From: Octopus vulgaris
Taxonomy: Eukaryota
Reading direction: 5' to 3'
Length of the DNA stretch: 64,000 bases
NCBI GenBank assembly: GCA_951406725.2
Contig: OX597815.1
Coordinates: 177,444,001 to 177,508,000, forward strand
A program made the translations under genes and the position numbers. Positions 1 to 59,941 of this stretch are shown here, in pieces. Below the pieces are notes generated by a model. That model saw only the letters and a program-made list of their open reading frames with translations, was not told where the DNA came from and did no database searches. How positions within the stretch are numbered: the stretch's first letter is position 1; every line of letters starts with the position of its first letter.

Positions 1-530
1 CGATGCAGTGGTGCAGTCACACACTCTAACAGTCTGGGAAATTCCTTTCACCTGAACCGCTTTCTTTCTACTCGTTCTCATTCCAAGATACAAACACCAA
101 CATAACTGATTGATGACAATAACAAATCGCTTTCAGGTTGCACCATGAAAGAAATGTGTTATAACTTATAGCTTACTTTTTAATCGTTGGCAACTGTGAA
201 GTAGCATAAAATTTATTTATTAATGCATTTAAATGGATTTCACAGAATATTAAAAAAAAAAGCAAGGCCTATTTACAGAATGCGTCACACTGCACTGACT
301 TCAAATTCCTCATATGTACAACACAATTTCTCCCCAATAATTTTCAATGTTTATTCATCTTGCAGAAGAGCTGCTTAAATAGATTGTTAATCAACTTTAT
401 ACAAGTTTAAAACATTCTGCTATAAGTAAAACAACTTTATTATTGATAAGAGCGATAATGTACATGTTCAAAATTATATAATTTTTCGTTTCCCTTTTTT
501 TTTTAACTGAGGACTTTGCAGCTTGTCCAA

Positions 531-947
531 TACCTATTTCTTTACCACCCACAAGGGGGTAAACACAGAAGGCACAAACAAGGACAGACAGATGGATCAA
601 GTCGATTACATCGACACCAGTGCGTAACTGGTACTTAATTTATCGACCGCGAAAGGATGAAAGGCAAAGTCCGCCTCGGCAGAATTTGAACTCAGAACGT
701 AACGGCAGACGAAGTACCTATTTCTTTACTACCCACAAGGGGCTAAACACAGAGAGGACAAACAAGGACAGACAGATGGATCGAGTCGATTACATCGACC
801 CCAGTGTGTAACTGGTACTTAATTTATCGACTGCGAAAGGATGAAAGGCAAAGTCAGCCTCTGCAGAATTTGAACTCAGAACGTAACGGCAGACGAAACA
901 CCGCTAAGAATTTCGCCCAGCCTGCCTGTTTCTGCCAGCTCGCCGCC
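531..947 (-). mobile_element. tRNA-derived SINE family A (cephalopod-type), internally duplicated (~184-bp unit)
   Basis: On -: head GGCGGCGAGCTGGCAGAAAC, B-box-like GAGTTCAAATT, body GCCTTTCATCCTTTCG..GTCGATAAATTAAGTACCAG. Unit repeats at 531 and 715. Many copies in window. Confidence 0.85.
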
Positions 948-1316
948 TCAGTTTGTCCAATACGTTGATTTGCAACCTTATTCTGGCTTTAAATTCTAGA
1001 ATAGCTGACGCAGTCTTCATTATATATGACATTCAATTGTACATTAACACTTGTATAGATTGTATTCGATCGCATTGTGCTGTTGAATCGGATTGAAAGA
1101 AAGGAAAATGGAACGTGAGAAAAGATTTTCAGGTAACAGAGAACACTCTGGAAATGAAGAGTCTACAATGGTTTGGAAGGAAATTTGTAGAACCCAGTTT
1201 CGATATCACTGTAAACGCTTCCATTTTCTCTCGTTTCTATGAAATGACTCGGTAACCTGGAATCTATTTCGTGTTACTCCTGGTGTTCCACTGAAACTCT
1301 TTCTATATAATTTTTT

Positions 1317-1730: not shown

Positions 1731-2029
1731 TTATCGTCACGGTCCTTTGTTTCTTTCTTTGCTGACTTTTTCACTTTCTCTCTTTCTCTCTGTCTGTCTC
1801 TCTATCTCTGTCTCTCTCTATCTCTCTCCCTCTACACACATACATTTATAATCGACTAGTCCCTTCCCCCAAAATTACAGGCCTTGTGCCTATAATGGAA
1901 AGGAATCTTCTTTTTCTTTTTCTTTTTCTCCTTTTTCTTTTACTTTTTCTTCTCTTTTTCTTCTTCTTCTTCTTTTTTCCTCTTCTTCTTCTTTTTCTTC
2001 TTATCATCCCCACCCAGCACAAAGCTATG

Positions 2030-2075
2030 TCTGTGACCGTACAGTTTCAGGATTATTTCCCTTCGTCGGCACAGA
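2030..2075 (-). ncRNA. type I hammerhead ribozyme motif (CCGACGA core variant)
   Basis: UCUGUG-CCGACGA-AGGG(AAAUAA)UCCU-GAAA-CU(GUAC)GG-U-CACAGA. One nt short at the cleavage junction relative to the sister copy. Confidence 0.7.
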
Positions 2076-2390
2076 ATAACTCTTCGGCTGAGATGGCGCT
2101 GCTAAACACCGGTCTAAAAATATATATGATTCTCTAAGTGACTCACATTCACTTATCTAATAAAATAGAAACTTTGTCGTTACTAAATCTCTCAACGGGA
2201 GATATTCAGTAGCAGCACTTTAAAGTAGTGATTTTTTTGCCAAGCAAATGTGGCAGTCCCATTTTGGCGCGAATGCTACTATTGTTTGGTCTCAGGAGAA
2301 TTCGTCTTCAGCTGGCTATACAACATACGATCTGTGTCCTTATATTTTCGAACATGAGCGGTTAGCACCCCCACCCAGAAATATGCAATA

Positions 2391-2437
2391 TCTGTGAATC
2401 GTACTATTTCAGGATTATTTCCCTTCGTCGGCACAGA
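2391..2437 (-). ncRNA. type I hammerhead ribozyme motif (CCGACGA core variant)
   Basis: UCUGUG-CCGACGA-AGGG(AAAUAA)UCCU-GAAA-UA(GUAC)GA-UU-CACAGA. 6-bp helix I, palindromic helix III loop, AUU triplet. Confidence 0.7.
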
Positions 2438-2815
2438 ATAACTCTTCGGCTGAGATGGCGCTGCTAAAAGTAATATATGGCATTATATATCATTGCACTG
2501 TTTTACGATATTGAGTACGGTTTTTTACAACATCATATTGACCCGTGTACATACTCTGCTGTGTAATGTGTTGATTTTTATACAACCACATGGTGAGCTC
2601 AAATATGTTCGCGTTAAAAGATGTAATTTGAAGAAACTTTACGTCTAAATACGTCAAGGTATATATTGTTTTTGGTTGGAGTTAGCGTTTCCCGCCGATA
2701 TAAACATGCACACTTGTATATTAGAAGCGAGTGAGTAGATTTGATTGTATGGATCTGTGGAGTTCTCATCATCTAACGTTCACTCACATCCCACGTTCAA
2801 TACATATGTACTTAC

Positions 2816-4959: not shown

Positions 4960-5092
4960 GACATTCGATCACATCTACTCCAGTATTCAACTTATCGACC
5001 CAGAAAGCGGAATTTGAACTCGGAACGTAACGGCAGACGAAATACCGTTAATAATTTCACCCGGCGTGCTTACGATTCTGCCAGCTCCCCGA
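4960..5092 (-). mobile_element. SINE family A fragment
   Basis: GGAATTTGAACTC.GAACGTAACGGCAGACGAAATACCG matches other copies. Confidence 0.75.
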
Positions 5093-5130
5093 CTTTATTT
5101 CCACTCGGAGTATAAACTTATAGCCTTAAC

Positions 5131-5199: not shown

Positions 5200-7165
5200 G
5201 TTTCTTTATGAGCCACACAGAGCTGCACACATACGGGACAGATTACAAAGTAGCGCTTTTCTTTTTTGGGAAAAAAAAAGAAGTGGGGTAGGTTTTCGAT
5301 CAAAAGGGATCGTAAAAGGGGAAGAAGAAAAAAAAGAAAAAAGGAAAAGAAACAAAAGAAAAGAAAAAAGAAAAAAAGGAAAAAAGGGGAAAAACGATGA
5401 ATAGGGATCGTGTATCACAGTGTCATGATGTAAGGCGTAAAAGGGGAAACAGATAAGGTTTATCCGAGGGAAGAAAAGCCTACGGAAAAGACCACGGTAA
5501 CCTTGGTCAATATTGTTACATGTTACCACATTTGTTTCCAAGTGGGTAACCCTCTGTTTTAAATTTCCGGGTTCATAGGATTATGCTCAAGGTGGCTTCG
5601 TCATTCATACGTGCCATCCTTGCTGCATTCACCCATCTTTTTTAAAAACATTCGCTAGACAAAACATGCTTCTCTACTCTCACTTTCCTTTTCAAGTGAT
5701 ACTTGAAGAAGGTTGAATGAGAGATTGACCAGAGAGGAAAGTGTTTGTCTCCAATCCTTTCAGACGCGTCCACCAGATACATTGTTACGCCATAGCCACA
5801 AGTATGATGAAAATAGCTCTTCCTTCCCGTTTGAAGGAAGGGGGTGTGACAATATTGACCATAGACTCGGCTGATAAACCGACTCGTCCCACCCGTGACA
5901 GCAGTCGTTCGACATATGCCCACAGGTCGGAGATTGTTGGACACTGCACGAGTGCGTGCAAAACGGTTTTGTCGCTCTGACCGCATCTCGGGCAGGTCGG
6001 CCCTGTGTTTCGCGAGCCGTGTCTGTAAAGCTTATCCCGAACGGGTAGCGCTTCTCGGTAGCACTGCCAGGCCAGGGATCTCTGGAAGTTGTCCTGAACA
6101 GGCGGGTCAGGTATTCCTCGTCGACGTCCAGGTTCGCCCCGAGCTCGTCGTCGTACCTCCCCTCCACTATTCCTCTATAGAATGCTTGGGTTGTGTTGGA
6201 GTCACTCAAGGTCGACCCAGGACGGCAGAGTTGCTTGAGAGCAACGCGACACTCGCGGTGCCATTCGCCCTTCCTCGGCCTCTTTTTGATCCACGACTGC
6301 GGTTCAGTCATGGAGACGAGTTGCGGGAGAACGTGCCTCACAAACGGCGACCACACCTGTTTACCGTCGTCTACATAGAGCCGGAGATGTCGCAGTCTTA
6401 GTGCGTGTCTGCACATCATCAACCACGGTATGCCCAGTCCTCCTTTTAACGGGTGTTGACAGCAAATGGATCGCCTGACCATTGGGACGCATCCTTTCCA
6501 CAAGAAGCGAAAGAGAATGCGTTCTAGTTTGGTGATGGTAGGGTCGGGACAAGGCACGACGGTCAGGCGGTAGTAGATGACGGACGCGATGTACGCGTTC
6601 GCCACCTCCGCCCGACCTTTTAGGGACAGTTTCCTCTCGGCCCATTGCCCGGCGAGAGTCACCACCCTACTCGTTATCTCATTCCAGTTCTTCTCCGGAG
6701 GTCCGGAGGTCCGGACCAAGCCAGACCCTGAGCAACTCGACCGGACCGTCGGTTCAGCGTCCGACAACGGAGGCGCTGGTGGACGGCATGGGGTAACTTC
6801 TCCAGGTGCCGAGTCGCAAGCCCACTGATTTTTTCCCCGTTGATTTTCGCTCCTGTCACCGCTTCGTAGTTTTTCAGTGTCTCGCCGACCTGCTCGATGT
6901 GCTCGTGGCTAGACACTATGACGGTGACGTCGTCCGCGTATGCAGACGAACTCGTCCCGCATCCCAGTTCTCGCGGTATGCCCCTCAGAGTTGCCAGCTT
7001 CCGCAATAATGGCTCGAGAGTCAATACGTAGAGAAGCGACGATGTCGAAAGGTCTCGATAGATGTCCATTTACGCGAATTACCGAACGGATGCCTTTCTA
7101 CAAAGCGGCTATCCAGCCGCGGAAGACGGGTCCGAAACCAGCCGCTCTGAGGACATCTTCCAAGT

Positions 7166-20112: not shown

Positions 20113-20984
20113 TCTTTTCTACTCTAGGCACAAGGCCCGAAATTTTTTGGGGGGGAGGGGCGATTCGCTTAGATCGATACCAGTACGCAAGGGGTACTTA
20201 ATTTATCGACCCCGAAAGGGTGAAACGCAAAGTTGACCTCGGCGGAATTTGAACTCAGAACGTAAAGATAGACGATTTAACGCTTTGCATTTCGCCCGGC
20301 ATGCTAACGTTTCTTATCTCTTTATTGCACACAAGGGGGTAAACATAGAGAGGACAAAGAAGGACAGACGGAGGGATTAAGTCGAATACATCGACCCTAG
20401 TGCGTAAATGGTACTTAATTTATCGACCCCGAAGGGATGAAAGGTAAAGTCGACCTCGGCGGAATGTGAACTCAGAACGTAAAAACAGACGAAATACCTA
20501 TTTCTTTACTACCACAAGGGGCTAAACACAGAGGGGTCAAACAAGGACATACAAGCGGATTAAGTCCATTGCATGGACCCCAGTGCGTAACTGGTACTTA
20601 GTTAATCGACCCCGGACTGATGAAAGGCAAAATCGACCTCGGCGGAATTAGAGCTCAGAGCGTAGCGGCCGACGAGCTACCGCTATGCATTTCGCCCGGC
20701 GCGCTAACGTTTCTGTCAGTTCGCTGCTTTTCTATGATTAAATATATGTTAATTATTTCTTTACTGCCCACAAGGGGCTAAACACAGAGGGGACAAACAA
20801 GGACAGACAAACAGATTAAGTCGATTACATCGACACCAGAGCGTAACTGGTACTTAATTTATCGACCCCGGACGGATGAAAAGCAAAGTCGACCTCGGCG
20901 GAATTTGAACTCAGAACATAACGGCAGACGAAATACCACTATGCATTTCGCCCGGCTCGCTAACGTTTCTGCCAGCTCGCCGCC
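20113..20984 (-). mobile_element. tandem array of four SINE family A bodies
   Basis: Body motif TATCGACCCCG..GGATGAAAGGCAAAGTCGACCTCGGCGGAAT recurs near 20200, 20420, 20605 and 20860. Confidence 0.88.
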
Positions 20985-21239
20985 TTTCTCTGATTAAATA
21001 TATATTAATCCAAGGTTTCATCACACGTGAAGACATGCAAATAAGAGAGAGACCAGGCAAGACGGGAGGCTGTTTTGTATGTAGGCGTACAGGAAATAAA
21101 TAGGTTATAGGTGTGTTCATTTGAAACAGACGAACGAAAGTTCGAAAAGATTCTTTGCTATTTTGATAGATCCGATATATTGGCTTCTAAACACCAAGTC
21201 AATGATGTGCTGATATATCGCATGCGACATGGTTAGAGT

Positions 21240-33347: not shown

Positions 33348-33409
<62 letters not shown>

Positions 33410-33419
33410 GAAAAGGAAC

Positions 33420-33860
33420 ACACGAGTTGATATATATGAAAAAACAAGTCAAAATAGGAAATGATAAAATAATTTTATAAAGAACATTTCAGTACCGGTT
33501 TGGGTCATTTTGAGACCTTTTCAACTTTAACGATTAAATAATTAAATTTAGAAAAATTAAAAGAAAAGTTTTTTTAAAGGAATATTTGTATAGTGTTCAA
33601 ATATAAGTGGCATTCTGCCTTTCTCTGTCTCCCTTGTTTGCACTTGTGTGTTCGAGGCCGTTGTGAATTCTTGGTAGGGTAGAAGAAGAAGAAGGTTGAT
33701 GAGGAGAGGGGGTGGAAAAATTTGGGAGTGCCTTGATGGTCGTATTTTGAATGGTCAGTGGCGGCTAGCAGTTGCAGTTCAATTCAGGAGAATATTTCTA
33801 TTGAAAGGTTTGTTTATGGAATTTGCGTAGGTGTTCTACTAAAAAGCATTAGTGATAAAG
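33420..33860 (-). mobile_element. Penelope-like 3' fragment with degenerate hammerhead (33488-33529)
   Basis: KYSPELN-type terminus followed by UUGAAAA-GGUC(UCAAAAU)GACC-CAAA-CCGG-UA. Core is mutated. Confidence 0.45.
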
Positions 33861-34018
33861 TTAAGAAGTAGAAGGTGGAGCAGAAGAAGAAGAAGAAGAA
33901 GAAGAAGAAGAGTTAATCCAAACAAGAAAACACAGAAAAAAAGAGAAAAAAACACAGGCAACGCGAGGACGTGGAACAATTAAAGTATTATTGACACTCA
34001 GGAAAGAAGGGAAGGCGG

Positions 34019-34053
34019 GTTTAACGTTTCGAGCGGAGCTCTTCGTCGGAAAC
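34019..34053 (-). ncRNA. minimal hammerhead motif (Penelope-type, loop-less palindromic helix III)
   Basis: GUUU-CCGACGA-A-GAGC(UCC)GCUC-GAAAC-GUU-AAAC inside a ~200-bp repeat (33910-34117). Confidence 0.6.
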
Positions 34054-59392: not shown

Positions 59393-59941
59393 AGCAATAA
59401 TAAATCTCTGAACGAGATGTAAACAGTAAGCGCGCTCGACAATGCAACGTATACTAGCCATCTCAATATGGCTAACCACTATAGGTGGGTGTTACTGTAG
59501 CTTTTTAGCCCCAGGAGATCATCGTCTCCAGCTGGCTTTAGACATAATTTCTGTGCCCTTATGATATTTGCAAAGGGAGGTCATCCCCTCTCGTAAACCT
59601 AAGTGATATGCATGGACTGCAGTTTCGAGATTATTGTCTCTTGTCAGCACACGGTAATCACCGGTTTTCGGTGAGGAGAGACCTGTTTGCGAATATCTAT
59701 TTAATGTTTTTCCCAGTAACCACTGTCACTGATTTCGAAACACGGTCTGAAAGCAATAATAAATCTCTGAACGAGATGTAAACAGTAAGCGCTCGACAAC
59801 GTAAAGTATACTAGCCATCTCAATATGGCTAACCACTAGGGGTGGGTGTTACTGTAGCTTTTTAGCCCCAGGAGATCATAGTCTCCAGCTGGCTTTAGAC
59901 ACAATTTCTGTGCCCTTATGATATTTCCAAAGGGAGGTCAT
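59393..59941 (-). mobile_element. retrozyme-like tandem element, 359-bp unit (~1.5 copies)
   Basis: Direct repeats starting 59393 and 59752, central HHR, homologous to 2007-2468. Confidence 0.78.
59610..59652 (-). ncRNA. type I hammerhead motif with G8A core mutation
   Basis: GUGUG-CUGACAA-GAGA(CAAUAA)UCUC-GAAA-C(UGCA)G-UC-CAUGC. Confidence 0.75.

What the first reader, a model, noticed from the sequence alone, without database searches (positions are those of the whole stretch)
2007..2468. Cephalopod retrozyme-like unit: a ~362-nt monomer bracketed by two hammerhead ribozymes
Seen: two ~100-bp direct repeats 362 bp apart, each folding on - as a type I HHR (helix I UCUGUG/CACAGA, helix II AGGG/UCCU, GAAA, short helix III with a palindromic GUAC loop). 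Established: non-coding 150-400-nt tandem repeats with one type I HHR per unit are metazoan retrozymes, which give abundant circRNAs in coral, mussel and salamander, and palindromic helix III loops favour dimeric cleavage. Inference: transcription through this locus could release a ~361-362-nt monomer (2396 to ~2035) able to circularise. I know of no characterised cephalopod family but cannot verify novelty.
Basis: partly seen in the sequence, partly recalled or inferred. Interest (0 to 1): 0.85.

Follow-up and report, generated by a model that had tools for sequence, protein, structure and literature searches.

The report
Decayed hammerhead retrozyme copy, Penelope-mobilised family
This is an old, mutated copy of a dispersed ~360-base repeat with a hammerhead-ribozyme motif, likely spread through this (probably octopus) genome by Penelope retrotransposon enzymes copying a predicted RNA circle; this particular copy is unlikely still to cut itself or circularise.

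Summary
The repeat is real: 2001-2106 and 2362-2468, 89% alike, 361-362 apart, each with a type I hammerhead layout on the minus strand. It is not a monomer bracketed by two working ribozymes. It is a 1.3-unit insertion of a dispersed, ORF-less 350-362-nt family, 10% diverged from its subfamily majority. Both cores read CCGACGA (U4C, ancestral in this subfamily). The upstream site has decayed to AUU with a broken helix III; the downstream site lacks one C. The family itself looks like a true metazoan retrozyme. Four variants keep a palindromic helix III, and two subfamilies share one circular fold with compensatory changes. Insertions carry a Penelope signature: 3' ends at two internal sites (102 of 135 pieces), scattered 5' ends, runs up to 3.1 units, and 45 outward versus 0 inward inverted pieces. 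Best reading: a fossil of a non-autonomous, Penelope-mobilised retrozyme family, probably copied from an RNA circle. Cleavage, circles and the partner enzyme are untested. New member of a known kind; the recurring C4 core is the unusual part.

The parts
2001..2468 (-). Whole insertion: 469 nt, 1.3 head-to-tail units of the family (subfamily S1), 47 differences from the subfamily majority
2107..2468 (-). One complete 362-nt unit (unit position u = 2469 minus coordinate)
2391..2437 (-). Upstream type I hammerhead motif: core CCGACGA (C4 at 2430), decayed helix III, AUU site with predicted scission between 2397 and 2396
   Evidence: sequence
2030..2075 (-). Downstream hammerhead motif: core CCGACGA (C4 at 2068), one C missing at position 17/1.1
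   Evidence: sequence
2362..2467 (-). Long interrupted stem extending helix I around the upstream hammerhead; compensatory changes between subfamilies
2036..2396 (-). Would-be cleavage-to-cleavage monomer (361 nt); circular fold weak, z -1.56
2219..2240 (-). First of two internal sites at which family insertions end (inferred reverse-transcription start site), around u239
2158..2179 (-). Second internal site at which family insertions end, around u300
1906..2002 (.). TCT-rich simple repeat abutting the 3' end of the insert; this end (u107) is off the family's two usual sites
59401..59938 (-). A second, much older member of the same family in this window (63% to the S1 majority), with a degenerate hammerhead at 59601-59661

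Best explanation
The locus is an old, mutated 1.3-unit copy of a dispersed, non-coding ~360-nt repeat family with one hammerhead motif per unit, likely mobilised by a Penelope-like reverse transcriptase and probably copied from a circular RNA monomer; this copy is predicted to be inactive. Inferred cycle: source copies with two or more units were transcribed; the hammerheads cut, likely helped by dimer formation through the palindromic helix III; a host ligase would close the monomer; a Penelope RT/GIY-YIG protein nicked AT-rich or (TA)n DNA, started at one of two internal sites about 165 and 230 nt downstream of the cleavage site, and ran on for 0.2 to 3 rounds, often adding an inverted second piece. 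Shown: family, anatomy, end statistics, decay. Inferred: cleavage, circle, identity of the enzyme.
For: Multicopy and dispersed: 79 matches from 40 of 1853 candidates scored; 279 exact matches to a 31-nt hammerhead pattern of the sister subfamily S3. 3' ends fall in two 21-nt windows in 33 of 50 S1/S2 pieces and 69 of 85 S3 pieces (maximum of 500 random draws 19 and 27), while 5' ends do not cluster (15 of 50, 25 of 85). 44 of 86 distinct loci carry an adjacent inverted piece, 45 junctions pointing outward and 0 inward. Craig 2021 describes this arrangement for PLEs, and Frangieh 2024 shows two internal RT start sites. Contiguous runs reach 2.2, 2.5, 2.65 and 3.1 units with no ORF between. Helix III is a perfect palindrome in all four variants seen, of 10, 8, 8 and 6 nt, with a C-G to U-A swap at 15.2-16.2. 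S1 and S3 majority units fold as circles at z -8.6 and -7.8. They share 80 predicted pairs, with 6 two-sided changes (null 1.8 +/- 1.2) and 11 broken pairs (null 20.2 +/- 2.8, minimum 12 in 2000), one swap lying in the stem that closes across the unit junction. Neighbouring units of one insert are more alike than units of different loci in 22 of 25 S3 loci. Decay of this copy.
Against: No autonomous partner sharing sequence with the unit was found. The young 784-aa Penelope family has no similarity to it, and only 3 of 128 loci screened, besides the query's own, have a fragment of that ORF nearby, none contiguous with a unit. End sites and inverted pieces show Penelope-type copying but not a circular template: a multimeric linear transcript gives the same pattern, and Frangieh 2024 found hammerhead cleavage dispensable for insertion in vitro. 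In S1 the within-locus similarity signal is absent (5 of 10 loci), and in S3 local duplication or gene conversion can explain it. The number of pairs with a two-sided change in the 35-copy alignment (6) does not exceed shuffles (6.2). U4C lowers activity in vitro. This copy's own 3' end (u107) is off the two sites. All loci are top-scoring hits, not a random sample.
Confidence: 0.62

Rival explanations
1. The family is a Penelope pLTR-derived, SINE-like element copied from linear multimeric transcripts. The hammerhead is a passenger under relaxed or protein-dependent constraint, and no circle is made.
For: The same end statistics and inverted pieces. Insertion does not need hammerhead cleavage in the anole PLE. 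S1 and S2 amplified with a C4 core. 8 of 9 Xenopus retrozyme dimers did not cleave in vitro.
Against: The palindromic helix III, the NUH site and helix I are kept across four variants, and a junction-spanning stem covaries. The largest subfamily has a canonical CUGAUGA core (55 of 64).
Confidence: 0.26
2. One reading: read-through transcription of this locus releases a 361-362-nt monomer that circularises today.
For: Two motifs at unit spacing with helices I and II pairable. The upstream motif passes a lenient test. The downstream site could be read as GUC with a shifted helix I.
Against: U4C in both, AUU upstream, a deletion downstream, weak helix III duplex (-5.5 against -17.8 kcal/mol), weak circular fold, and 47 differences in 469 nt, consistent with neutral decay.
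Confidence: 0.07
3. An ordinary dispersed repeat whose tandem pieces arise by DNA-level duplication, with a chance hammerhead likeness.
For: No Rfam hit. Four S3 loci have near-identical neighbouring units.
Against: Fixed 3' ends, 45:0 polarity of inversions, conserved core and palindrome, structural covariation.
Confidence: 0.05

Closest known systems
Metazoan non-LTR retrozymes (Cervera and de la Pena 2020, PMC7229834; mussel repeats of 350-390 bp)
   Same: Unit size, GC below 50%, one type I hammerhead per unit with 6-bp helix I and short palindromic helix III, no ORF, self-paired predicted circle.
   Different: Here mostly dispersed partial tandems with inverted pieces rather than clean dimers to 62-mers. 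C4 core in two subfamilies and an A-G or A-A mismatch at 10.1/11.1 in others. No young copies among the hits examined; expression as circles not shown.
Penelope-like elements and their pLTR hammerheads (PMC4209133, PMC8557442, PMC11167929)
   Same: Partial tandems, 5' truncation, inverted upstream piece, two internal 3' end sites, AT-rich or (TA)n targets (24 of 63 S1-type pieces).
   Different: No RT/GIY-YIG ORF. The two sites are about 55-60 nt apart against a 30-40 nt tail. The hammerhead is canonical in size, not minimal.
Vertebrate retrozymes as PLE derivatives (Li, Clavereau, Pollet, bioRxiv 10.64898/2026.07.22.740005)
   Same: Non-autonomous, PLE-linked, mostly few units per locus, many dead copies.
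   Different: That link rests on co-occurrence and pLTR homology in vertebrates and four invertebrate outgroups (no mollusc). Here it rests on insertion anatomy, and no homologous pLTR was found.

Membership tests
Metazoan non-LTR retrozyme | 150-450-bp head-to-tail repeat with one type I hammerhead per unit | tested here: met
   Units 337-369 nt, up to 3.1 in a row; mostly partial tandems
Metazoan non-LTR retrozyme | GC below 50% and no coding capacity | tested here: met
   GC 0.35-0.42 in 17 monomers; longest ATG ORF 30 aa in majority units
Metazoan non-LTR retrozyme | No LTR, PBS or PPT | not tested
   Insert ends do not behave like LTRs, but PBS and PPT were not searched for
Metazoan non-LTR retrozyme | Stable self-paired circular fold | tested here: met
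   Majority units z -8.6 and -7.8; 15 of 17 natural monomers below -2; this locus -1.56
Metazoan non-LTR retrozyme | Self-cleavage as monomer or dimer | not testable with these tools
   Needs in vitro transcription
Metazoan non-LTR retrozyme | Accumulation as abundant linear and circular RNA | not testable with these tools
   Only contigs of runs guessed to be RNA were on offer
Active retrozyme locus (Li et al. 2026 criterion) | Two consecutive complete hammerheads | tested here: not met
   Downstream motif fails, upstream passes only with C4 and AUU allowed
Canonical hammerhead (Rfam) | CUGAnGA core; Rfam model score | tested here: not met
   CCGACGA in both copies; no hit
Penelope-type insertion | Fixed internal 3' ends, 5' truncation, outward inverted piece | tested here: met
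   Family level; this locus has no inverted piece and an off-site 3' end
Autonomous Penelope-like element | RT plus GIY-YIG ORF between pLTRs | tested here: not met
   No such ORF contiguous with units in 128 loci or the window

The most novel reading that the evidence does not exclude
A cephalopod retrozyme lineage whose thousands of genomic fossils record rolling-circle reverse transcription: a Penelope RT starting at two fixed internal sites of a ~355-nt hammerhead circle and running up to three rounds. In addition, U4C hammerhead cores, crippling in vitro, were fixed in the source elements of at least two unrelated repeat families of this genome, one with over 7000 near-identical motifs. 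That would mean C4 ribozymes work in vivo through dimerisation or protein help. A young, intact Penelope ORF in the same genome would make the open question of how retrozymes are mobilised directly testable.
Probability: 0.3. Interest if true: 0.7.

Novelty: new member of a known kind. Interest (0 to 1): 0.45.

Why it matters
Retrozyme mobilisation by Penelope elements is proposed from co-occurrence and sequence kinship, and the mechanism is stated to be open. This family adds insertion-level evidence (two internal start sites, strict inversion polarity, multi-round copies) and names the sites to test. It would extend retrozymes to cephalopods: I found no description in searches, and 'octopus', 'cephalopod' and 'squid' do not occur in the main text of the defining paper, whose supplement I could not read. 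The recurring C4 core suggests that descriptor and Rfam searches undercount hammerheads in such genomes. The locus itself is an unremarkable dead copy.

Tried and rejected
Rfam: no hammerhead at gathering score or at E<=10. Expression: no RNA holder listed for this locus. Contigs of runs only guessed to be RNA match family pieces (57 and 12 laid on the window stretch; 527-976 per run on an S3 locus), are short and include opposite-strand joints; they cannot show strand, level or circularity, so no verdict. A joint seen in two such runs traced to one rearranged genomic copy, not to a new subfamily. Autonomous partner: the 784-aa RT/GIY-YIG family shares no sequence with the unit; Penelope fragments near L051, L064, L070 and L025 look like separate insertions. 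This screen used two protein queries only and would miss distant clades. Long satellite arrays: no more than two motifs at unit spacing among the 42 pattern hits, and at most 3.1 units in fetched loci; 179 of 279 S3 hits were not listed. U4C as a lesion of this locus: rejected. Positions 4-5 read CG 27, CA 9, TG 4 in 40 S1 copies, the pattern of CpG decay from ancestral CG, though the S1 copies were found by similarity to this locus. No target-site duplication was evident by eye at this locus. A whole-genome covariance-model census was not available, so counts are lower bounds. Earlier scan notes: nothing found. Papers PMC3376415 and PMC10886601 (passages) added nothing.

Full report
Observation. 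The two repeats exist as described, and on the minus strand each has the layout of a type I hammerhead. Three defects were missed. Both cores are CCGACGA, so U4 is C. The upstream motif (2437-2391) has an AUU site and a helix III reduced by four substitutions. The downstream motif (2075-2030) has lost a C at the cleavage site. Rfam finds no hammerhead, and the isolated motifs do not fold as hammerheads at minimum energy. The host being a cephalopod is my recall plus genome size, not a test.

The family. The stretch belongs to a dispersed repeat. 79 matches came from 40 of 1853 candidates; further searches scored 40 of 651 and 40 of 3274 candidates. I fetched 30 loci per search, with 1.5-kb flanks, so all statistics below are on top hits. 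116 distinct hammerhead copies fall into S1 (40, this locus), S2 (11), S3 (64) and one unclassified; three more loci show a fourth helix III variant. Median identity to the subfamily majority is 87.7% for S1/S2 and 91.2% for S3, with no piece above 96.1%. A 37-nt S1 motif has 0 exact and 42 near matches genome-wide; a 31-nt S3 motif has 279 exact matches. The family is therefore old, and S3 is larger and younger. This copy differs at 47 of 469 positions. With a lenient rule, 8 of 40 S1, 1 of 11 S2 and 23 of 64 S3 motifs remain intact.

Selection on the source RNAs. Helix III differs between variants in length and sequence but is always a perfect palindrome, with a C-G to U-A swap. This fits dimeric cleavage as described in PMC4209133. 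In 35 aligned copies 89.8% of cells pair, and two-sided changes number 34 against 17.4 in shuffles, but only 6 pairs carry them (shuffles 6.2) and relatedness inflates such counts. The S1 and S3 majority units (293 of 349 columns identical) fold as circles far better than shuffles and share 80 pairs, with fewer broken pairs than any of 2000 random placements of the same substitutions. The structure was predicted from these same sequences, and the S1 majority includes S2 pieces. C4 is ancestral in S1 (CG 27, CA 9, TG 4) and probably S2, while S3 is canonical (TG 55 of 64). Perreault 2011 notes that U4C considerably lowers activity in vitro yet permits viroid infectivity.

How it moved. 3' ends of inserts cluster at two sites, near u239 and u300 (33 of 50 and 69 of 85 pieces; random maxima 19 and 27), whereas 5' ends scatter. 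44 of 86 distinct loci have an adjacent inverted piece, 45 junctions outward and none inward, and 24 of 63 S1-type 3' ends abut a dinucleotide microsatellite, against 8 of 63 at 5' ends and 3 of 76 in S3. These are the features reported for Penelope-like elements, whose RT starts at two internal sites of the RNA. Runs reach 3.1 units without an ORF. Neighbouring units are more alike than units of different loci in 22 of 25 S3 loci but only 5 of 10 S1 loci. That is compatible with repeated copying of one circular monomer, and also with local duplication. The two hammerheads at this locus are thus a by-product of a 1.3-unit insert, not terminal repeats. Its 3' end at u107, beside a TCT tract, is off the usual sites (2 of 50 pieces end there), so it may have been truncated later. 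The genome holds a young, intact 784-aa RT/GIY-YIG family, but it shares no sequence with the unit, and no partner was identified.

Mechanism, by status. Shown: repeat, family, decay, end and inversion statistics. Inferred from known families: Penelope RT as mobiliser (likely, about 0.85); hammerhead cleavage and a circular intermediate in the source elements (about 0.65); inactivity of this copy (about 0.9). Untested: any cleavage or RNA.

Comparison and novelty. It works like a metazoan non-LTR retrozyme, and the family meets every sequence-level feature I tested; this locus fails the two-intact-ribozymes criterion. Papers seen: PMC7229834 (abstract, sections 13, 14, 17, passages; supplement unreadable and may list cephalopod repeats); bioRxiv 10.64898/2026.07.22.740005 (parts 1-3 of 5); PMC11167929 and PMC4209133 (parts 1-2 of 4 each); passages of PMC3088659, PMC8557442, PMC6962438 (235 hammerhead-1 hits in giant squid, so cephalopod hammerheads are not unknown), PMC3376415 and PMC10886601. 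Searches found no description of a cephalopod retrozyme family, and searches 19 and 81 none of family-wide C4 cores; the library lacks most subscription papers, and repeat databases were not available. Verdict: new member of a known kind, dead at this locus, interest 0.45, raised by the insertion-level link to Penelope and by the recurring C4 core.

Noticed in passing
window 34018-34049 (-): A minimal type I hammerhead of a second, unrelated ~200-bp repeat family, usually flanked by (TA)n, also with a CCGACGA core. 7374 exact matches of a 32-nt pattern in G000; 77 of the first 100 listed have C4 and 23 have U4, the U4 copies among the 15 fetched sharing other diagnostic letters. U4C was thus carried through a very large amplification.
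   Followed up: partly
L155 (G000:C9:10671000-10680999); 132 matches: A very young Penelope-like family: 784-aa RT plus GIY-YIG ORF, many copies 100% identical in protein, tandem period about 4.43 kb, long TCT/TCA-rich 3' UTR, an upstream open stretch, and no hammerhead found within the element by my loose scan.
   Followed up: partly
window 33400-33900 (-): An older (87%) copy of the 3' untranslated end of that young Penelope family, directly downstream of the 34049 hammerhead element.
   Followed up: partly
L155:216-255 (+): A third hammerhead-like motif with a CCGAUGA core, in another repeat beside the Penelope array.
   Followed up: no
window 59401-59938 (-): A much older member of the same 360-nt family, about 1.5 units, 63% to the S1 majority.
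   Followed up: partly
window 501-950, 4983-5094, 20315-21009: Partial tandem copies (period 184 and 256) of another common repeat, recalled as an octopus SINE-like element; not tested.
   Followed up: no
window 5760-7070 (-): Broken reading frames resembling the reverse transcriptase and C-terminal region of a LINE (resemblance recalled).
   Followed up: no
S3 subfamily, e.g. L085, L096: The first pair of helix II is an A-G mismatch in the S3 source (AG 34, AA 25, AT 4 of 64, consistent with CpG decay), and the cleavage triplet is AUA in 61 of 64.
   Followed up: partly
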